Shown here piece after piece: positions 26,924-32,298 of a stretch of DNA of 44,077 bases. How positions within the stretch are numbered: position 1 is the first letter of the stretch; the number at the start of each line of letters is the position of its first letter. The stretch comes from Shigella phage EP23. The position numbers and the translations under genes are program-made. The stretch lies in sequence record JN984867. The stretch is one strand, 5' to 3'. The notes below the pieces were generated by a model that ran no database searches, was not told where the DNA came from, and saw only the letters and a program-made list of their open reading frames with translations.

Positions 26924-28351
26924 TTAAATTTTCCTCGTTTTCTTAGCTTTCATGTATTCCATCAAGTCGTCCTGGATATCTCGCCTACTGTCGCGACGCT
27001 CGGCGACCAATTCGTCCAGTGTCCCGCGAGCCTGGATAATGTAGACGAATACTGGTCGAGGGTGTCCGGCTTGCATCTGGCGAACCGGCCCGATACGTTC
27101 AACGATCTGCGAAAAGTGCTCAAAGTTCCAGGTATCGGAGAAGATTGCCAGGTGATGTCCGCCGTCCTGCAAGTTAAGGCCGTGGCCTGCCGATGCCGGG
27201 TGTGCAAACATGATGGGGATCTCGCCCCTGTTCCACGCTTCCATATCCTTATTGCCCTGCTTACCCTTACCCAACGCGACGCCGTGCGGAAATTTCTTCT
27301 TAAGACGTGCCAGATCATGCTTGTACTGATACGCAACGAGCAACGGCGCGCCGTTCAACTCCTCCACGATACTTTCCAGCGCGTCCAGCTTCGCGTCGTG
27401 AATCTTCACCCACTCGTCGGTCCGTTCGCCGTCTTCGTCCACCTTATACACAGCGCCGGATGCAAGCTGAAGGCACTTAATTGTCTTCGCCGCGGCGTTC
27501 GCCGCTTCCACTGTTCCGCTTTCCAGTTCGGCAAATAGCTCGCTTTCAAACTGGTCATAAATCTTGCGGGCTTTCTTCGGCAGGTCCACAACAACCGGCG
27601 TATAGATTGGCTTGTCACACCCGAAGTATTCAGCCGCATCAACGGTTAGCGACACGTCGGACAGTCGTTGTTGTATTTCTTTCTCGGAGTTCTTAAGCGG
27701 GGCGTGCTGCATCGTGAAGCTGCCAGGCTTAACAGGCTTGCTAATAAACCAGCGGTCCGTGAACGCCTTATAGCTACTGCCGAGACGTTCGCCGCCGTCG
27801 ACAAACCACGTCTGACCCCATAGGTCTTTCAGCCCGTTCGGTGCGGGTGTGCCAGTCAGGTTAATCCAGCGCTTGACGTGCTTATGTGCGATCGCTGCCA
27901 GCGCACGGGCGCGCTTACTTCCCTGCTTGCTTCTATAGCCTTTCAGCTTAGTGGATTCATCGGCAACCACGACCGTAAAGGGCCACTCGTCGCCGCAATA
28001 CTCAACAAGCCACTCAACTACATCATAGTTAATACAAACCACGTTAGCGTCGCTCTCAAGCGCAGCGATGCGGTCCTTCTCTGGCCCAGTGCCGTCTACT
28101 ACCAGCAAGGCTGGGAAGCGCCATTTCTCCTGTTCCGGGGGCCATGTACCGGACGCAACGCGCAGCGGGGCCAGCACCAGTACGCGGTCATCCTGGTTGG
28201 ACAGGATGCCAGTCTGGAACATTTTATTCAGCGCCCACATGGTCGCGCCGGTTTTACCCGACCCCATTGTCGCCCATATATTGCATCGCTTATGCTTGAG
28301 GATGAACGCGGTTATCAACTTCTGATATTCGCGACGTCGGAAACGTGCCAT
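26924..28351 (-). CDS. SNF2/DEAD-like helicase
   Basis: Walker A ATMGSGKTG, motif II VVADESTKLK, C-terminal helicase domain (HPASAGHGLNLQ). The ORF is open to 28441. The ATG at 28351 avoids a 90-nt overlap with the upstream gene. Confidence 0.85.
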   Translation of the reverse strand: MARFRRREYQKLITAFILKHKRCNIWATMGSGKTGATMWALNKMFQTGILSNQDDRVLVLAPLRVASGTWPPEQEKWRFPALLVVDGTGPEKDRIAALESDANVVCINYDVVEWLVEYCGDEWPFTVVVADESTKLKGYRSKQGSKRARALAAIAHKHVKRWINLTGTPAPNGLKDLWGQTWFVDGGERLGSSYKAFTDRWFISKPVKPGSFTMQHAPLKNSEKEIQQRLSDVSLTVDAAEYFGCDKPIYTPVVVDLPKKARKIYDQFESELFAELESGTVEAANAAAKTIKCLQLASGAVYKVDEDGERTDEWVKIHDAKLDALESIVEELNGAPLLVAYQYKHDLARLKKKFPHGVALGKGKQGNKDMEAWNRGEIPIMFAHPASAGHGLNLQDGGHHLAIFSDTWNFEHFSQIVERIGPVRQMQAGHPRPVFVYIIQARGTLDELVAERRDSRRDIQDDLMEYMKAKKTRKI

Positions 28352-28355
28352 TTCT

Positions 28356-28574
28356 TTATTCCGCCTTTTTCCAGACTTCAGTTTCACTATCCCAGTTCCT
28401 CTTTGTGGCGTCGTAGTTGGTGGCGTGTCCGACGTGGACACCGGTAGCCCGGAAGCTCTTAAATTTTTGCCAGCACACCGTCAACGGCAGTGGGTAATTT
28501 AGGCCCGCGATAAACCACACGCGATCGCCTGGTTTACATTCGCCCAGCTTGGTGAGTCGGTAATGTTCTTTCAT
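28356..28574 (-). CDS. hypothetical protein (72 aa)
   Basis: SD GGGAGA 7 nt upstream of the ATG at 28574 (alternative start 28580). Confidence 0.5.
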   Translation of the reverse strand: MKEHYRLTKLGECKPGDRVWFIAGLNYPLPLTVCWQKFKSFRATGVHVGHATNYDATKRNWDSETEVWKKAE

Positions 28575-28822: not shown

Positions 28823-28851
28823 ACTATACCGCTATGCGACCAATTCAGCAA
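28823..28851 (-). promoter_or_regulatory. sigma70-like promoter
   Basis: On the minus strand: TTGGTTGCTG (-35 TTGCTG)-17 nt-TATAGT, with TTGGTCGCA in the spacer. Confidence 0.5.
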
Positions 28852-29110
28852 CCAATAAATCGCAGTCGGATATGTTGTCGATAACGCGAACGTCAGCACC
28901 GCGGCGGGCCATTCGCTCATGTTCACGTACCTGGTGCGGCTTCGGTTTTCCTCCGGGGCGCTTCACTTCGACGAACACTATTTTGCCGTTGATGATAATA
29001 ATCAGGTCGGGCGCACCTGCGCGCCCCTCCCATGCCAGTTTTCGGCAGAATCCGCCAACATCTTTCACCCGTCTCATCAGGTGGCTTTGAATCTTGCCTT
29101 CTGGTGTCAT
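28832..29110 (-). CDS. VRR-NUC domain nuclease
   Basis: 92 aa. GAPDLIIIINGKIVFVEVKRPGGKPKPHQVREHERM matches the VRR-NUC core (D...EVK). Its ATG overlaps the polymerase stop by 1 nt (TAATG). Confidence 0.8.
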   Translation of the reverse strand: MTPEGKIQSHLMRRVKDVGGFCRKLAWEGRAGAPDLIIIINGKIVFVEVKRPGGKPKPHQVREHERMARRGADVRVIDNISDCDLLVAELVA

Positions 29111-32100
29111 TACTTGCGGTAGCGATACATGCAATCGCCCTCTGCGGCAAGTGGGAAGCCTTTCGCCCAAACCGGCAGGTCGCACATCAGCGCGCACAAC
29201 TCCTCGGTTGTGTAGTCGTCGGTATCCGGCACTTCGGTTATCAGCTCATCGTGTACGGAAAGTACGATCTCATACCCCGCAGCTTCAACGCCAGGCATGG
29301 ACCATGCGAGAATATCGCGGCACAACGCCTGTACGATGTTTTCCGTCAGTTTGCCGCCGTAGGTATACTGGAATCCCCACTGGCGCGTCGTCTGATTCTC
29401 GCCCTGATATTTAATGCGTGTGCTGGTGCGCTTCTTGCCGGTGTCTTCGTCGATCTCGGTCGTGACAGACAGCGCGATGCCAGGGTAGCTCATGATGCGC
29501 CCTGACGGCAACTCAATTTTAAGCCACCACCCCGCCGCGTTCGGGTCGTCGCGCTCCTCGTCGAAGGTCGGGTCATGCTTCGCCTTCGTTCGAACAATTT
29601 TGAGCGCTTTCCTGCCATCCGGGCGAACGTTCGCGCCAGCCCAGTACGCTTTGCCCGGATTGCGGATCGCGCAGAGCACCGCGTCCTCCAGTTCGGCCCA
29701 AAAGGCTACCGTCATCGGGTGAGACTCACGCCACATACGTTTGATCGCGTCACACGTCAGCCACACGTTTTTCGGCAGTATGTAAGTTGGGCGCTCGTCT
29801 TTCTTGCCAGGCTTCGGCGGGCGCTTCTCCTCGTTAATGCGAGCGTACTCATAACCCCGCTTCGCCGCCGCCCAAATGTGATCCGGGAATGTGCCCTTCA
29901 TGACGTCAGCCATAGTGTAAAGGTCGAGGCCCAGGTTTTTAGCGAACTGCAAGAACGCCGCGACGCCGCCACCATAGCCCAGGCCAAGCTCGCAGTTATG
30001 CGCCACCAGAAAACCAGACTTAGACGCAATAAGGAACCGGTTTCCGTCTTCCACATCAATCAGGTCGTAAACCGGCTCGCAATAGGTTAACTTCCCGTTC
30101 CAGTTCAGCAATGCGGGTAAGGGCTTCATCGTACTTTCTCTGAAGCTCGGGCACGCTGCGCCGGTTACGGCAGTTTTCCGAACGGCTGACAAACCGAAGG
30201 TTTCCAGGCTCATAGTCGCCGTCTGTATCGATCCTGTCCATTTCGAAGTCTGGCTTATCCCAGCCGTCCAGCGTTTGAACGTAGAGAAGAAACGACCTTT
30301 TATCTCTCTTCCATTCGTCACATACGGCAATCCCACGACCGCCGTAGTTTTTATACCCTTTGGCGCGGGGGTTTGTCGTTCGTGATATTGCCGCTGACAG
30401 CCGGTTGAGTAGCCGCGTTCTGTGCGCATCGTCTGGCATTGCGTCATCGTAGCAAAAATACTGTTTACGATACCGCTTTGTCGCTTCAATTGCGCAGAGG
30501 TTGCATTGGGATGTTTTACCCCTTCGGACGTTGTCATACCCGACGCGTCCTGGCATCGCTCCGCAATCACATTGGGCCAGCAGTTGTCTGTGACCCTGTC
30601 GTTTTGGTAATTCGCGCAGGATAACCAGGCGTCCATACCTCTCGCCAGGGCGCGGACCATCGTGCACCTGTCTGAAACGAGTTGCCTTGCCTCCTTCCAT
30701 GAATGCGTCAAGATTTTGTGGTCTTCTGTCATCAAGACCCCGTCCACGTCTATCACTGGTTTCCACCCCATAAGGTGCGCGCCTTTTGTACTCACCCATT
30801 TTTCGCCGTTCCATACTTTATCCGTTGATGTTACGGCCATAATATCCTTGAACCCGCCATTGGTCAATACTTGGGTATGGCGGTGCAAGCAAGCCTTACC
30901 GATCTGGCGTAAGTCCTTGCGGTTGGCTTTAATGTAATCCGGGTCAAGGCCGAACATCTTACCGGCAGTCTCGCAATAGATATCGCGACCGGCCTTAAAG
31001 ACCATTAACGCTGTTTTCTCGCCAGCGATCCAGGCAAGTCCACGCCCTTCCACATTGGAGTAGTCCGCTACGACAAACTTCTTGCCCTTCGCCGGAATAA
31101 TGCACCCGCGAACGGTCGAGGCCGTTAGCTTCGATATGTCATACGCCCAGTGTGCGGTCCCGCGTAACAGGGAGTTGATGCCGTTGGTGAGCATGTGCGA
31201 CCGGACCCAAAACGAGACGTCGCTTTCACCCTCGCGGCGTTTAATCTTCCCTTCGTGGTCGTCGCTGTACTCGCCACGCGCCAGGTTTTGAGGCTGGAAG
31301 CCTTTGCCCGCCCAGCGCAGCGTGCGCTTTGCGCCGCCATACTGAAGACACCCACGGCGGCGACCATCTGCGGATAAGCCGTTAACTAGCGGATTGTACT
31401 TAGTCGATGCCGTTGATGACGCCCCGAGGCGCATTTCGATAAGCGCTTTGCCTTCGTCGGGGAAGTCCGGGTCTTCAAGCAGGTCGTTAAGCGTGGATTT
31501 CTGCGCGTTGTGGATCGTGAACGCCGGGGCGATATCACGCAGGATTGGCAGGAAGTCATTGCCTGTCAGCTTACCGCCAAATCGCTCCCAGGCTTCTTCC
31601 TTCAATTCTTCCTTATGCGCCTGCACCGCTTTGATCGCGGCGTTCGCCAGGTCAACGTCGACGTAGAAGCCGCGGTCGTTAATCAACTGGTCGATGAGCA
31701 GGATTTCATCTTCCTTAGGCGAGTTTCCCCAGTCCGGTATGCGCCAGTAGACTTCACGCATTGCGATAATATCCAGCGCGGCATAGCGCAGAAATTTGGC
31801 CCATTCTTCCGGGTGAGTCTCGCGAGTGTAGCGGCGGATTTTGTAGGTCTTAGGGGTAGGCTTACAGAATCGGTTAATCAGCGCCTTGCCTGCCTTATCC
31901 TTCGCGTGCTCTGCGTCAACGCCCAGAACCTGGCACTGCATATCGAGGCTACCGGGCAGCGCGTGGCGAAAGGCCATAATCATAGTGTCTTCGATCTGGC
32001 TTACCGGCAGGTCAATACCCCACTTCTCGCGGATAACCAGGCGGTCAAACAGGAGGCCGTTAGCCATCACTATTTTAGCCTTCTTGCGGGATACCCGGCG

Positions 32101-32298
32101 GAGCGCCTTGCGCAGTTCACGCGGCATTGTGGGGGATTCAGTGGCATCCCATGTCTGCACGCGGCCCTCGTCTATGGCGTAGGTGCAAATCATAATCTCT
32201 GTGGTTGGGTGCTCCGCGTAGGCGTACGCCCCAACTTTCTTCAGGTCCACCCCGCTAAATGTCTCGGTGTCGAGAAACAGGCGTTCGAAGTCTTTCAT
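29110..32298 (-). CDS. family A DNA polymerase precursor with 3'-5' exonuclease domain, interrupted by an intein
   Basis: Exo I FLDTETFS. Polymerase motif B is split as RQIGKA|C...HN|CELGLGYGGG. Exteins are 30892-32298 and 29110-29994. Confidence 0.9.
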   Translation of the reverse strand: MKDFERLFLDTETFSGVDLKKVGAYAYAEHPTTEIMICTYAIDEGRVQTWDATESPTMPRELRKALRRVSRKKAKIVMANGLLFDRLVIREKWGIDLPVSQIEDTMIMAFRHALPGSLDMQCQVLGVDAEHAKDKAGKALINRFCKPTPKTYKIRRYTRETHPEEWAKFLRYAALDIIAMREVYWRIPDWGNSPKEDEILLIDQLINDRGFYVDVDLANAAIKAVQAHKEELKEEAWERFGGKLTGNDFLPILRDIAPAFTIHNAQKSTLNDLLEDPDFPDEGKALIEMRLGASSTASTKYNPLVNGLSADGRRRGCLQYGGAKRTLRWAGKGFQPQNLARGEYSDDHEGKIKRREGESDVSFWVRSHMLTNGINSLLRGTAHWAYDISKLTASTVRGCIIPAKGKKFVVADYSNVEGRGLAWIAGEKTALMVFKAGRDIYCETAGKMFGLDPDYIKANRKDLRQIGKACLHRHTQVLTNGGFKDIMAVTSTDKVWNGEKWVSTKGAHLMGWKPVIDVDGVLMTEDHKILTHSWKEARQLVSDRCTMVRALARGMDAWLSCANYQNDRVTDNCWPNVIAERCQDASGMTTSEGVKHPNATSAQLKRQSGIVNSIFATMTQCQTMRTERGYSTGCQRQYHERQTPAPKGIKTTAVVGLPYVTNGREIKGRFFSTFKRWTAGISQTSKWTGSIQTATMSLETFGLSAVRKTAVTGAACPSFRESTMKPLPALLNWNGKLTYCEPVYDLIDVEDGNRFLIASKSGFLVAHNCELGLGYGGGVAAFLQFAKNLGLDLYTMADVMKGTFPDHIWAAAKRGYEYARINEEKRPPKPGKKDERPTYILPKNVWLTCDAIKRMWRESHPMTVAFWAELEDAVLCAIRNPGKAYWAGANVRPDGRKALKIVRTKAKHDPTFDEERDDPNAAGWWLKIELPSGRIMSYPGIALSVTTEIDEDTGKKRTSTRIKYQGENQTTRQWGFQYTYGGKLTENIVQALCRDILAWSMPGVEAAGYEIVLSVHDELITEVPDTDDYTTEELCALMCDLPVWAKGFPLAAEGDCMYRYRK
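29995..30891 (-). mobile_element. intein (299 aa) in polymerase motif B
   Basis: Block A CLHRHTQVLTNGGFKDI, block B LMTEDHKILT, C-terminal blocks VYDLIDVEDGNRFLIASKSGFLVAHN followed by the +1 Cys. Boundary codons checked on the sequence: 30889-30891 = Cys, 29995-30000 = His-Asn, 29992-29994 = Cys. Confidence 0.85.
30056..30814 (-). CDS. HNH-family homing endonuclease-like ORF nested inside the intein in the -1 frame
   Basis: Motifs GERYGRLVIL, CDCG...QCNLC, YKNYGGRGIAVCDEW, MDRIDTDGDYEPGNLRFVSRSENCRNRR. 30814 is the maximal ORF start. The ATG at 30700 (214 aa) lies just before the conserved core. No clear SD at either start. Confidence 0.7.
   Translation of the reverse strand: MERRKMGEYKRRAPYGVETSDRRGRGLDDRRPQNLDAFMEGGKATRFRQVHDGPRPGERYGRLVILRELPKRQGHRQLLAQCDCGAMPGRVGYDNVRRGKTSQCNLCAIEATKRYRKQYFCYDDAMPDDAHRTRLLNRLSAAISRTTNPRAKGYKNYGGRGIAVCDEWKRDKRSFLLYVQTLDGWDKPDFEMDRIDTDGDYEPGNLRFVSRSENCRNRRSVPELQRKYDEALTRIAELEREVNLLRAGLRPD

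What the first reader, a model, noticed from the sequence alone, without database searches (positions are those of the whole stretch)
29995..30891. Intein inserted in the O-helix (motif B) of a phage family A DNA polymerase
The polymerase reads ...DLRQIGKA | CLHRHTQVLTNGGFKDI ... LMTEDHKILT ... VYDLIDVEDGNRFLIASKSGFLVAHN | CELGLGYGGG.... Removing the 299 aa restores RQIGKA-CELGLGYGGG. This corresponds to the Pol I motif B pattern R-x-x-x-K-x-x-N/x-F/L-G-x-x-YG. All canonical splicing residues are present: Cys1, block B T-x-x-H, the terminal His-Asn and the +1 Cys. Active polymerase, and hence phage replication, should therefore depend on protein splicing.
Basis: partly seen in the sequence, partly recalled or inferred. 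Interest (0 to 1): 0.65.

Follow-up and report, generated by a model that had tools for sequence, protein, structure and literature searches.

The report
Polymerase intein hiding an out-of-frame endonuclease gene
The 897-base insert in this phage's DNA polymerase gene is a real, already-annotated intein, but its middle two-thirds is really a separate homing-endonuclease-like gene read in another frame, and this overlapping design recurs in hundreds of phage polymerase genes.

Summary
On the minus strand, 29995-30891 is a 299-codon, stop-free, in-frame insert in a family A polymerase gene (29110-32298). It has Cys1, T-E-D-H, His-Asn and Cys+1. It splits the O-helix, and about 140 close Dhillonvirus relatives lack exactly these 897 bp.

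The intein reading is supported and already known: about 156 Salmonella/E. coli phage records carry an 82-84% identical copy, many annotated "intein-containing DNA polymerase precursor".

Codons 66-255 have dN/dS 1.13 in that frame but 0.12 in the +2 frame, which holds a 247-aa ORF (30056-30799). That ORF belongs to a large phage "HNH/AP2 homing endonuclease" family. The polymerase frame is merely kept stop-free.

All 80 related viral loci checked have zero stops in that frame, and 76 show polymerase-embedded intein ends. A free-standing relative has 19 stops in the equivalent frame. HEN-less mini-inteins of the same family exist. The intein is 99.1% identical across polymerases that are 93.5% identical, which indicates recent homing.

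A 2025 preprint described out-of-frame intein endonucleases in actinophages. This is a new, widespread member of that kind. Splicing and cleavage are inferred, not shown.

The parts
29110..32298 (-). Family A DNA polymerase precursor ORF (1062 aa including the intein)
   Evidence: ORF list; Pfam DNA_pol_A and PHROG DNA polymerase families; 93-97% identical to Dhillonvirus polymerase genes.
30892..32298 (-). N-extein (469 aa), ending ...DLRQIGKA. The O-helix Arg and Lys lie at 30892..30909.
   Evidence: Klentaq alignment.
29995..30891 (-). Intein DNA (897 bp, 299 codons). This is the whole mobile unit.
   Evidence: Exactly absent from empty alleles. 99.1% identical among insert-bearing Dhillonviruses, against ~93.5% for their exteins.
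30697..30891 (-). N-terminal splicing region, codons 1-65, selected in the polymerase frame. Contains Cys1 (30889..30891) and block B T-E-D-H (30718..30729). Frame-0 conservation (W65, A68) continues to about codon 73.
   Evidence: Frame-0 dN/dS 0.07; the wobble position is frame-0 position 3; invariant C1, T6, W27, G29, T55, H58, W65; hits to Neq Pol, Spl DnaX and RecA inteins and to TIGR01445.
30127..30696 (-). Central ~190 codons. In the polymerase frame this is an unconstrained, stop-free linker. The real coding frame here is +2 (the nested gene).
   Evidence: Frame-0 dN/dS 1.13 and 59% aa identity, against +2 frame dN/dS 0.12 and 83% aa identity. Substitutions fall on frame-0 position 2. 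P(0 stops) is 0.003-0.016 under synonymous shuffles. HEN-less mini-inteins of the family have only a short linker here.
29995..30126 (-). C-terminal splicing region, codons 256-299 (blocks F/G: VYDLIDVEDGNRFLIA...SGFLVAHN). The terminal His-Asn lies at 29995..30000.
   Evidence: Frame-0 dN/dS 0.07; invariant D97, F107, G114, H119, N120 of profile A5; TIGR01443 hit is sub-threshold (12 vs 15.6 bits).
29110..29994 (-). C-extein (294 aa plus stop), beginning with Cys+1: CELGLGYGGG. The first ~60 nt form a co-conversion tract.
   Evidence: The first 60 nt are 98.9% identical among insert-bearing alleles and 91.4% against empty alleles, with fixed synonymous markers.
30056..30799 (-). Nested gene in the +2 (-1) frame: a 247-aa homing-endonuclease-like protein of the HNH/AP2-type phage family. 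The likely start is ATG 30799, formed by the last base of intein codon 31 plus TG of Trp32. The upstream ATG at 30814 is not conserved.
30839..30867 (-). Candidate internal sigma-70-type promoter for the nested gene (TTGACC, 17 nt, TATTAT), built on intein block-A codons. It ends 39 nt upstream of ATG 30799.
   Evidence: 10/12 matches; one match in the region is no more than chance. The same position scores >=9/12 in 38 of 72 nested elements and both hexamers occur in 1 of 12 mini-inteins. Leu9 is TTG in 59% vs 14% background, and the codon-16 third base is T in 74% vs 18%. This is inferred, not demonstrated.

Best explanation
The insert is a composite mobile element: a class-1 intein whose homing-endonuclease gene is encoded out of frame inside it.

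1. Ribosomes reading the polymerase frame make a 1062-aa precursor.
2. Intein residues ~1-70 and ~255-299 fold together into a HINT splicing domain.
3. The ~190 residues between them are the +1-frame read-through of another gene and act only as a tolerated linker.
4. Cys1, T-x-x-H, His-Asn and Cys+1 carry out standard protein splicing. This rejoins RQIGKA-CELGLGYGGG and restores the O-helix of an essential polymerase.
5. Separately, a 247-aa protein is translated in the +2 frame from ATG 30799. It may come from its own transcript, started at a promoter embedded in the block-A codons.
6. This protein belongs to a phage HNH/AP2-type homing-endonuclease family. It presumably cuts intein-free polymerase alleles in co-infecting phages.
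7. Recombinational repair then copies the 897 bp plus a short flank into the cut allele.

Because any stop in the polymerase frame would be lethal, selection keeps that frame open through the endonuclease gene.

Shown here: the exact insertion, the two open frames, the frame-specific selection, homology of both parts, the recurrence of the layout, and the mobility signature. Inferred: splicing, nuclease activity, and the route of expression.
For: Insert and motifs.

Frame switch:
- Between-clade divergence falls on frame-0 position 3 in codons 1-65 and 256-299, and on frame-0 position 2 (the +2 frame's wobble) in codons 66-255.
- dN/dS is 0.07, 1.13 and 0.07 in frame 0 for the three segments, and 0.12 in the +2 frame for the middle.

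Open frame is not chance:
- 0 stops in 14 of 14 phage copies.
- 0 stops in 80 of 80 viral loci with 41-98% HEN identity.
- 4.2 stops are expected under synonymous shuffling, median P(0)=0.001.
- The free-standing relative L018 has 19 stops.

Intein homology: profile hits to the Neq Pol intein (6e-5), Spl DnaX mini-intein (0.013) and RecA mini-inteins, and TIGR01445 in 7 of 38 relatives.

Self-sufficient ends: mini-inteins of 120-158 aa from the same family sit at the same O-helix sites and have no second ORF.

HEN family.

Start codon and promoter codon bias.

Homing: intein 99.1% vs exteins 93.4-93.6% identity, plus a 60-nt co-conversion tract and fixed flank markers. The element is sporadic in Dhillonviruses, 7 of ~149 records.

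O-helix position.

Precedent for out-of-frame intein HENs: bioRxiv 10.1101/2025.01.02.630785.
Against: - The window's own sequence reaches no curated intein threshold.
- The only structure model of the polymerase-frame product is unusable (pLDDT 30.5), so the HINT fold is not shown structurally.
- The nested protein has no Pfam, NCBIfam or PDB-sequence hit.
- The family has invariant Asp-Arg where HNH enzymes usually have the catalytic His, so nuclease activity is uncertain.
- There is no clear Shine-Dalgarno sequence before ATG 30799.
- HEN-less mini-inteins also have a start-like triplet at that spot in 12 of 12 cases.
- The binomial P-values for codon bias ignore relatedness among the sequences.
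- No experimental data on splicing, expression or cleavage were found.
Confidence: 0.85

Rival explanations
1. Group I self-splicing intron carrying a free-standing HNH homing-endonuclease ORF, as Sodalis phage SO-1 gp38/gp39 are annotated. The 897 nt would be removed from the mRNA, and the open polymerase frame would be incidental.
For: SO-1 annotation: 'contains type I self-splicing intron' and 'HNH endonuclease'. Group I introns with HNH genes are known in phage family A polymerase genes, for example Pf-WMP3 I-PfoP3I (PMC3428280). The real coding frame of the centre is the endonuclease frame.
Against: No Rfam group I intron match even at E<=10. The polymerase frame is stop-free in every one of more than 80 diverged copies, which an intron does not require. 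Both ends evolve as protein in the polymerase frame (dN/dS 0.07) and carry invariant intein residues. The ends are homologous to solved inteins. In all 72 distinct elements delimited, both intein ends lie in one continuous polymerase-frame ORF, 277-299 codons apart.
Confidence: 0.02
2. Canonical bifunctional intein: all 299 aa form one protein with an in-frame central endonuclease or other folded domain, and the +2-frame ORF is a chance or relic ORF.
For: The polymerase frame is open. GenBank annotators treat the 299 aa as 'intein'. PHROG phrog_93 'endonuclease' matches the frame-0 translation, but that family is built from these same annotated products.
Against: The frame-0 centre has dN/dS 1.13 and 59% identity, against 0.12 and 83% for the +2 frame. 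Frame 0 has no domain hit. The +2 product has 1740 homologues, a confident fold and invariant residues. It stays intact down to 41% identity.
Confidence: 0.03
3. Non-splicing insertion of the ShiLan type: a hidden out-of-frame endonuclease gene whose in-frame translation simply stays in the host protein as a tolerated loop.
For: Precedent exists in mycobacteriophage methylases (PMC11855218). Splicing has not been demonstrated here. In many family members the endonuclease stop is the TAA inside the terminal CAT AAC, like ShiLan's TAAC.
Against: Unlike ShiLan, both ends carry the full invariant set of splicing residues and are homologous to proven inteins. The insert interrupts the O-helix between the dNTP-binding Lys and the Phe/Tyr positions of an essential polymerase, where a 299-aa loop is very unlikely to be tolerated. 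Mini-intein relatives occupy the same site.
Confidence: 0.05
4. Same composite element, but the endonuclease is made by -1 ribosomal frameshifting from the polymerase frame, as a fusion to the N-extein and N-intein, rather than by internal initiation. Alternatively, initiation occurs on the polymerase mRNA without a dedicated promoter.
For: The +2 frame equals the -1 frame. There is no strong Shine-Dalgarno before ATG 30799. SS3e's annotated protein fuses the two frames. An AAGGAGG lies at the frame-switch point.
Against: No slippery heptamer is evident at the switch. The Rfam frameshift-element hit is noise (13 vs 70 bits). In many copies a +2-frame stop directly precedes the conserved start. 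The start triplet is ATG in 56 of 72 elements, against 14% background A at third positions. Promoter-like hexamers are maintained by synonymous choices. SS3e differs by a 1-nt indel that also breaks the polymerase ORF.
Confidence: 0.08

Closest known systems
Guernseyvirinae (Jerseyvirus/Kagunavirus) PolA intein, as annotated in vB_SenS-Ent3 ('intein, encoding splicing domains'), BPS11Q3, S55 and LP31 ('intein-containing DNA polymerase precursor'), and in Dhillonvirus Pubbukkers
   Same: It is the same element: 897 bp, the same O-helix site, 82-84% (Guernseyvirinae) or ~99% (Dhillonvirus) nucleotide identity, and the same two open frames.
   Different: Those records annotate only the intein, or only 'DNA polymerase', or 'endonuclease' for the whole ORF. 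SO-1 calls it a group I intron plus HNH. LPSE1 lists the nested ORF as hypothetical. No record or paper I could find describes the dual-frame partition.
Actinobacteriophage inteins with homing endonucleases in a separate reading frame (Gosselin, Arsenault and Gogarten, bioRxiv 10.1101/2025.01.02.630785)
   Same: An intein whose HEN lies on the same strand in 'frame 3' relative to the splicing domain. The in-frame translation of that region is unstructured. The HEN is related to free-standing phage HEGs. There are signs of continuing horizontal transfer.
   Different: Their out-of-frame HEN is endonuclease VII-like and is described as rare. The host proteins listed for their four non-canonical HEN types are a DNA polymerase, minor capsid protein, terminase and thymidylate synthase, in actinophages; the only polymerase in their host list is Pol III alpha. 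Here the HEN is a 247-aa HNH/AP2-type family. The host is family A polymerase in phages of Gram-negative bacteria. The HEN ORF overlaps both splicing regions. The layout is retained down to 41% HEN identity in at least 76 viral loci.
ShiLan domain: out-of-frame HNH endonuclease insertion in mycobacteriophage DNA methylases (Arsenault et al., Genes 2025, PMC11855218)
   Same: A stop-free in-frame insertion that hides an HNH-type gene in another frame. The endonuclease stop overlaps the last codons of the insert. The expression route is unclear.
   Different: ShiLan has no splicing motifs or HINT-like fold and is thought to stay in a non-essential protein. Here the canonical intein ends are present and homologous to solved inteins, and the host site is catalytic.
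Fractured genes: split inteins with a free-standing HEG between the halves (Dassa et al., NAR 2009, PMC2677866)
   Same: A free-standing-type HEG sits between the N- and C-terminal splicing halves of an intein. This supports the 'HEG invades a mini-intein' model.
   Different: In that case the host gene is broken into two ORFs and spliced in trans. Here the host frame stays continuous through the HEG, so splicing would be in cis.
Group I introns with HNH homing endonucleases in phage family A polymerase genes (e.g. Pf-WMP3 I-PfoP3I, PMC3428280; T7-like phage introns)
   Same: The same target gene class and a separately translated HNH-type endonuclease inside the intervening sequence.
   Different: Removal is at the RNA level by a ribozyme. 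No ribozyme signal is found here, and the protein frame is maintained.
Solved inteins nearest in sequence: Nanoarchaeum Neq Pol split intein (5OXW/5OXX), Spl DnaX mini-intein (7CFV), Mtu RecA mini-inteins (2IN9, 5K08)
   Same: The HINT-domain blocks align, including the region through T-x-x-H and the following Trp.
   Different: Similarity is only remote (E=6e-5 to 0.08 with a family profile). None of them has a nested out-of-frame gene.

Membership tests
Intein (class 1 HINT protein-splicing element) | In-frame insertion in a conserved site of a host protein, absent from close homologues with exact boundaries | tested here: met
   897 bp (299 codons) are missing exactly from five empty Dhillonvirus alleles. 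The O-helix and the Pfam match are restored on removal.
Intein (class 1 HINT protein-splicing element) | Catalytic residues: Cys/Ser1, block B T-x-x-H, C-terminal His-Asn, and +1 Cys/Ser/Thr | tested here: met
   C1, T55-E-D-H58, H298-N299 and C+1 are present in the window. They are invariant in 38 relatives with 32-74% identity. One relative has Ser+1.
Intein (class 1 HINT protein-splicing element) | Sequence homology to known intein/HINT domains | tested here: met
   The window copy alone gets no Pfam hit, and TIGR01443 scores 12 bits against a 15.6 cutoff. The family profile A5 hits the Neq Pol intein at E=6.3e-5, Spl DnaX mini-intein at 0.013 and RecA mini-inteins; 12 of 14 PDB hits are inteins. 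TIGR01445 hits 7 of 38 members.
Intein (class 1 HINT protein-splicing element) | HINT fold formed by the N- and C-terminal regions | tested here: inconclusive
   The AF2 model of the 319-aa frame-0 segment has mean pLDDT 30.5 from a 5-row alignment, so it is unusable. Indirect support: contiguous 120-158-aa mini-inteins of the same family.
Intein (class 1 HINT protein-splicing element) | Protein splicing activity | not testable with these tools
Canonical bifunctional intein (in-frame LAGLIDADG/HNH endonuclease domain) | The central region encodes, in the intein's own frame, a conserved endonuclease domain | tested here: not met
   The frame-0 centre has dN/dS 1.13, 59% aa identity and no domain hit. 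Selection acts on the +2 frame.
Intein with out-of-frame homing endonuclease (Gosselin et al. 2025 preprint) | An intact ORF for a HEN inside the intein, on the same strand in a different frame, with splicing blocks in the host frame | tested here: met
   A 247-aa ORF in the +2 frame lies wholly within the insert. The same layout is seen in 76 viral loci plus 7 metagenomic or genomic contigs.
Intein with out-of-frame homing endonuclease (Gosselin et al. 2025 preprint) | The HEN is related to free-standing phage HEGs, with evidence of continued mobility | tested here: met
   The free-standing relative L018 sits next to a PolA gene. BFVD gives matches to annotated homing endonucleases. Intein identity is 99.1% against 93.5% for the exteins, with a co-conversion tract.
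Intein with out-of-frame homing endonuclease (Gosselin et al. 2025 preprint) | Same HEN type (endonuclease VII-like) and same host proteins | tested here: not met
HNH / beta-beta-alpha-Me endonuclease | Beta-beta-alpha-metal fold with the H-N-H/N catalytic motif | tested here: inconclusive
HNH / beta-beta-alpha-Me endonuclease | Site-specific DNA cleavage of the empty allele | not testable with these tools
   Inferred only from the homing signature.
Group I intron with homing-endonuclease ORF | Conserved ribozyme core detectable by covariance models | tested here: not met
   An Rfam scan of 29700-31200 at E<=10 returns only three noise hits and no intron family.
Group I intron with homing-endonuclease ORF | The intervening sequence is not constrained to keep the host reading frame open | tested here: not met
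   The host frame is open in 14 of 14 phage copies and 80 of 80 viral loci. 4.2 stops are expected, and the free-standing gene has 19.
ShiLan-type non-splicing insertion with hidden HNH | Absence of intein splicing motifs or HINT homology in the host frame | tested here: not met
   Splicing motifs and intein homology are present.

The most novel reading that the evidence does not exclude
The out-of-frame arrangement is an old and evolutionarily stable class of composite mobile element, not a rare transitional accident. In this reading:

- A free-standing-type endonuclease gene is permanently entangled with a mini-intein inside an essential polymerase ORF.
- Its start codon is built on an invariant intein Trp codon, and its own promoter is written into the synonymous positions of intein block A.
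- Because indels in the endonuclease region would frameshift the polymerase and kill the phage, the overlap shields the endonuclease from that route of decay. This would let it escape the usual homing cycle of invasion, fixation and degeneration. It would explain dN/dS of 0.12 even where the element is near-fixed, as in Guernseyvirinae.

The E. coli Dhillonviruses, with natural intein-plus and intein-minus alleles, would then be a tractable model for how inteins acquire endonucleases.
Probability: 0.4. Interest if true: 0.75.

Novelty: new member of a known kind. Interest (0 to 1): 0.55.

Why it matters
As a bare intein call, the finding is ordinary. The same element has been annotated in Salmonella and E. 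coli phage genomes for years.

The interesting part is what lies inside. The intein's "endonuclease region" is a separate gene in another reading frame. It is under purifying selection, and the polymerase frame across it is only kept free of stops.

That architecture was first reported in a 2025 preprint, for a few actinophage inteins, and was described there as rare. Here it appears in at least 76 of the 80 best viral-contig relatives, out of 351 relatives detected. It is retained down to 41% endonuclease identity. It occurs at three neighbouring O-helix insertion points. HEN-less mini-inteins and one free-standing endonuclease belong to the same families.

This bears on four things:

- **Intein origins.** It gives concrete material for the "splicing domain first, endonuclease invades later" model.
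- **Overlapping genes.** It is a clean natural case of constraint partitioned between two frames.
- **Annotation.** It explains contradictory database labels for one element: intein, group I intron, "endonuclease", hypothetical protein.
- **Experiments.** Lytic E. coli K-12 phages offer a tractable system for testing homing, splicing and the expression of nested genes.

Tried and rejected
- **Group I intron** (SO-1 annotation). Rejected: no Rfam signal, and the host frame is always open.
- **Chance ORF in the +2 frame.** Rejected by dN/dS, the number of homologues and the confident fold.
- **My own early reading of L015-L017 as free-standing.** The gene callers had split the host ORF. Re-analysis showed these are nested too, and only L018 is free-standing (then 75).
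- **Met39 of the listed ORF (or ATG 30814) as the start.** Rejected: codon 39 is CTG in Guernseyvirinae, and a stop follows the 30814 ATG in most copies.
- **Structure of the polymerase-frame product.**
  - The permitted 5-row alignment gave pLDDT 30.5, so the model was discarded.
- **Nuclease identity of the nested protein.**
  - Single-sequence Pfam, NCBIfam and PDB searches with the window's intein ends and nested protein gave nothing significant.
  - Foldseek against PDB was negative for the nested protein.
- **Programmed frameshift.** The weak Rfam astro_FSE hit is noise (13 vs 70 bits), and no slippery site was evident.
- **The promoter scan on its own.** One match against 0.8 expected is not significant. 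It gained weight only from positional and synonymous-codon conservation.
- **Literature searches.** Searches for this specific PolA intein's dual-frame nature (Jerseyvirus, SETP3, SO-1, Salmonella phage intein) found nothing relevant.


Full report
**1. Observation**

The feature is on the minus strand. ORF 29110..32298 encodes 1062 aa. It is stop-free and flanked by ...DLRQIGKA and CELGLGYGGG.

The window is a Dhillonvirus-like E. coli phage.
- Of 149 phage records whose best match is 90% identical or more, 7 records (5 phages: SO-1, Pubbukkers, P-GXEC-L2P5, PS2, AV129) carry the insert.
- The listed relatives without the insert cover 72% of the query in two pieces, and their matched span in the record is exactly 897 bp shorter than the query.
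- Five empty alleles read ...GGT AAG GCG|TGC GAA TTG GGA....

Removing the insert in silico extends the Pfam DNA_pol_A match across the junction: 393-469 becomes 393-482, and the score rises from 50.7 to 59.9 bits, against 60.3 for an empty allele. Klentaq aligns MRRAAKT|INFGVLYG with LRQIGKA|CELGLGYG. By textbook Taq numbering (R659, K663, F667, Y671) the insert lies inside the O-helix, between the conserved Lys and the Phe position.

**2. A second gene inside the insert**

The ORF list shows a 252-aa ORF (30056..30814) on the same strand, in the +2 frame, wholly inside the insert. The polymerase-frame translation of the insert hits no Pfam or NCBIfam family. The +2-frame product hits PHROG "HNH endonuclease" families: phrog_374 at 2e-47, phrog_3377 and phrog_2081, with a weak endonuclease VII hit at 3e-5.

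Database annotations of the same DNA contradict one another:
- SO-1: "type I self-splicing intron" plus "HNH endonuclease" gp39.
- Pubbukkers: "intein-containing DNA polymerase".
- vB_SenS-Ent3: a mat_peptide "intein, encoding splicing domains".
- Others: "endonuclease" for the whole ORF.

**3. Which frame is selected where**

A blastn search with the insert finds 164 phage records. Seven are ~99% identical Dhillonvirus copies. About 156 are Guernseyvirinae copies (Jerseyvirus, Kagunavirus) at 82-84% identity. Every full-length match listed spans exactly 897 bp.

In 14 copies from both clades:
- the polymerase frame has 0 stops;
- the +2 frame is open from about codon 29 to codon 277;
- the third frame has 24-30 stops.

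Between-clade divergence by codon position switches sharply.
- In intein codons 1-65 and 256-299 it sits on polymerase-frame position 3 (0.19-0.47, against 0.01-0.08 at positions 1 and 2).
- In codons 66-255 it sits on polymerase-frame position 2, which is the +2 frame's wobble position (0.32-0.39).

Nei-Gojobori dN/dS values:

| Segment | Polymerase frame | +2 frame |
|---|---|---|
| Codons 1-65 | 0.07 | 1.60 |
| Codons 66-255 | 1.13 (59% aa identity) | 0.12 (83% aa identity) |
| Codons 256-299 | 0.07 | 1.93 |

The switch points are at about codons 64-66 and 254-256. Frame-0 conservation (W65, A68) persists a few codons further. So the 299 aa are not one evolved protein. They are two splicing ends plus an unconstrained linker, and the linker is the read-through of another gene.

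**4. The open polymerase frame is maintained by selection**

Given the endonuclease protein sequence, synonymous-codon shuffles predict 2.9-3.75 polymerase-frame stops in codons 66-255, with P(0)=0.003-0.016. Codon-order shuffles give P(0)=1e-4 to 1e-3.

Across 70 distinct relatives from viral contigs, the observed total is 0. The expected mean is 4.2 per sequence, with median P(0)=0.001. The one truly free-standing relative (L018) has 19 stops in the equivalent frame.

**5. How widespread the layout is**

The +2-frame protein has 1740 homologues, mostly 240-250 aa at 42-52% identity.

Scanning IMG/VR with their alignment found 351 loci. All of the best 80 (41-98% identity) have zero stops in the intein frame, against 6-32 in the other frame, and lie inside ORFs that are open for 600-1126 codons. 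In 76 of them both intein ends could be delimited. These give inteins of 277-299 aa embedded in family A polymerase motif B.

Three loci that I first read as free-standing (L015-L017) are also nested. The gene callers had split the host ORF. Metagenomic contigs L019-L022 show the same layout.

The +1 Cys lies at three nearby positions relative to the O-helix Lys:
- K+2, as in the window;
- K+3;
- K+6 (RQIGKVMELA|C...HN|CGYGGG), in most of the metagenomic copies.

**6. Intein membership**

The window's ends alone are sub-threshold. TIGR01443 scores 12 bits against a 15.6 cutoff, and a shallow 5-sequence profile hits only inteins but weakly, at E=0.13-1.7.

A 38-sequence profile of the first 78 plus last 42 residues, with members 32-74% identical to the window, gives significant hits to solved inteins:
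- Neq Pol intein, E=6.3e-5;
- Spl DnaX mini-intein, E=0.013, over profile positions 3-107;
- Mtu RecA mini-inteins, E=0.035-0.08.

Twelve of the 14 PDB hits are inteins. TIGR01445 intein_Nterm hits 7 of 38 members, and Pfam Vint hits 2. The invariant columns include C1, T55, H58, H119 and N120.

Scanning with this profile also found contiguous mini-inteins of 120-158 aa. They sit at the same O-helix sites and at a second polymerase site (YGG.L.EN|C...HN|C.QA.ARD). Both alternative frames of these mini-inteins are full of stops. The two ends are therefore a self-sufficient splicing domain, and the nested gene sits where the mini-inteins have a short linker.

The AF2 model of the polymerase-frame product was unusable (pLDDT 30.5), so I draw nothing from it. 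Rfam finds no group I intron at E<=10.

**7. The nested protein**

AF2 with 112 homologues gives mean pLDDT 86.8.
- Residues 1-18 are low-confidence (pLDDT below 50) and residues 19-50 score only about 70-77. This N-terminal leader is the part encoded over the constrained N-terminal splicing region.
- The model shows a beta-sheet domain.
- There is a beta-beta-alpha element at 185-211.
- There is a long C-terminal helix.

The family has four invariant Cys, and invariants include D188, R189, N200 and N209.

Fold searches gave mixed results.
- Foldseek against PDB finds nothing.
- BFVD gives 107 significant matches to phage proteins named HNH, AP2 or HTH homing endonuclease.

The usual catalytic His is not evident, so nuclease activity is inferred rather than established.

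**8. Expression of the nested gene (inferred)**

The first ATG (30814) is followed by a stop in most Guernseyvirinae copies. The conserved start is ATG 30799, made from the last base of intein codon 31 plus TG of the near-invariant Trp32.
- In 72 distinct elements this triplet is ATG 56, GTG 11, TTG 2, CTG 1 and GTT 2.
- Codon 31 is always TCA for Ser (11/11), GCA for Ala (5/5) and AAA for Lys (11/11).
- Third-base A occurs in 78% of elements, against 14% background in the same genes.

A sigma-70-like match (TTGACC, 17 nt, TATTAT; 30867..30839) ends 39 nt upstream of this start. One match is no more than chance in this window. However, the same position scores 9/12 or better in 38 of 72 nested elements. 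Leu9 is TTG in 59% against 14% background. Codon 16 ends in T in 74% against 18% background. Only 1 of 12 HEN-less mini-inteins has both hexamers.

Three caveats apply. The sequences are related by descent, so the binomial P-values overstate significance. The mini-inteins also carry a start-like triplet at that spot (12 of 12, with ATG in 4 of 12). No clear Shine-Dalgarno sequence precedes the ATG.

**9. Mobility**

Among the six insert-bearing Dhillonviruses the intein is 99.1% identical, while the N- and C-exteins are 93.4% and 93.6% identical. The first 60 nt of the C-extein are 98.9% identical among insert-bearing alleles and 91.4% against empty alleles. Fixed synonymous markers distinguish the two allele types: GCT|TGC GAG CTT GGY against GCG|TGY GAR TTG GGR. 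Together with the sporadic distribution, this is the classic signature of recent homing with a short co-conversion tract.

**10. Comparison with what is known**

The intein itself is already known through database annotations.

The idea of an intein endonuclease encoded in a separate frame was published in 2025 for actinophages (bioRxiv 10.1101/2025.01.02.630785). That preprint describes an endonuclease VII-like HEN "in frame 3". The hosts listed for its non-canonical HEN types are a DNA polymerase (the only polymerase in its host list is Pol III alpha), minor capsid protein, terminase and thymidylate synthase. It calls these architectures rare.

The ShiLan element (PMC11855218) is a non-splicing analogue. 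Neither paper mentions Salmonella, Escherichia or Sodalis phages. Further searches found no description of the dual-frame nature of this PolA intein.

I therefore file it as a new member of a recently described kind. It differs from the actinophage cases in its endonuclease family, in its host protein (a family A polymerase), in the ORF's overlap with both splicing regions, in its frequency among metagenomic relatives, and in its occurrence in tractable E. coli phages.

**11. Verdict**

The richer truth is a mini-intein entangled with an out-of-frame endonuclease gene. Confidence in that architecture is about 0.85. Splicing, cleavage and the route of expression remain to be shown experimentally.

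Noticed in passing
L034 (Salmonella phage SS3e) and protein P0004: SS3e's copy is 1 nt longer. The N-terminal splicing frame runs into the endonuclease frame, giving an annotated 268-aa 'HNH endonuclease', and the polymerase ORF is broken. This is either a sequencing error or a decayed copy. It is also the kind of indel that could convert the layout into an in-frame intein endonuclease.
   Followed up: partly
window 28832..29110 versus L001 4756-5358, L003 4756-5358, L103, L105: SO-1, P-GXEC-L2P5, mckay and BF9 carry a 603-bp ORF between the polymerase and VRR-NUC genes; SO-1 annotates it 'putative HNH endonuclease', the other records call it hypothetical. The window, Pubbukkers, PS2 and TheodorHerzl lack it. 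It is a second, variable endonuclease slot next to the polymerase.
   Followed up: no
L007 4852-5897 (vB_SenS-Ent3) versus window 26924..28441: The Jerseyvirus helicase gene carries a separate LAGLIDADG-type intein. The window's helicase ORF has none.
   Followed up: no
L110, L113, L129, L141, L144; window ~29240..29290: Mini-intein relatives of the same family occupy a second polymerase site, YGG.L.EN|C...HN|C.QA.ARD. This corresponds to the window's uninterrupted TYGGKLTEN-IVQALCRD.
   Followed up: partly
L035-L102: The nested-endonuclease inteins use three neighbouring insertion points in the O-helix, with Cys+1 at K+2, K+3 or K+6 relative to the conserved Lys. One copy (L064) has Ser+1. 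This suggests the element has shifted target position by a few codons.
   Followed up: partly
L038, L044, L056, L061, L062 and others: In many family members the endonuclease ORF ends at the TAA inside the terminal intein codons CAT AAC (His-Asn). This is the same 'TAAC' ending reported for the ShiLan element. In the window the stop lies 61 nt before the intein end.
   Followed up: partly
L018 2047-4798: The only truly free-standing relative of the endonuclease found lies immediately downstream of an uninterrupted 627-aa family A polymerase gene. It may be a free-standing HEG next to its target gene.
   Followed up: partly
PQ843332.1 (L003 source record): The Escherichia phage P-GXEC-L2P5 record is 88,607 bp, about twice the size of a Dhillonvirus genome. 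It may be a concatemeric assembly.
   Followed up: no
MG065648.1 (hit H25): 'Campylobacter phage A144' (35 kb, unannotated) is 92.7% identical to this E. coli phage polymerase gene. It is probably a mislabelled or contaminant sequence.
   Followed up: no
window 30692..30741 (-): Weak Rfam hits at the frame-switch region (astro_FSE at 13 vs 70 bits, plus two UPD pseudoknot families). I judged these to be noise.
   Followed up: yes
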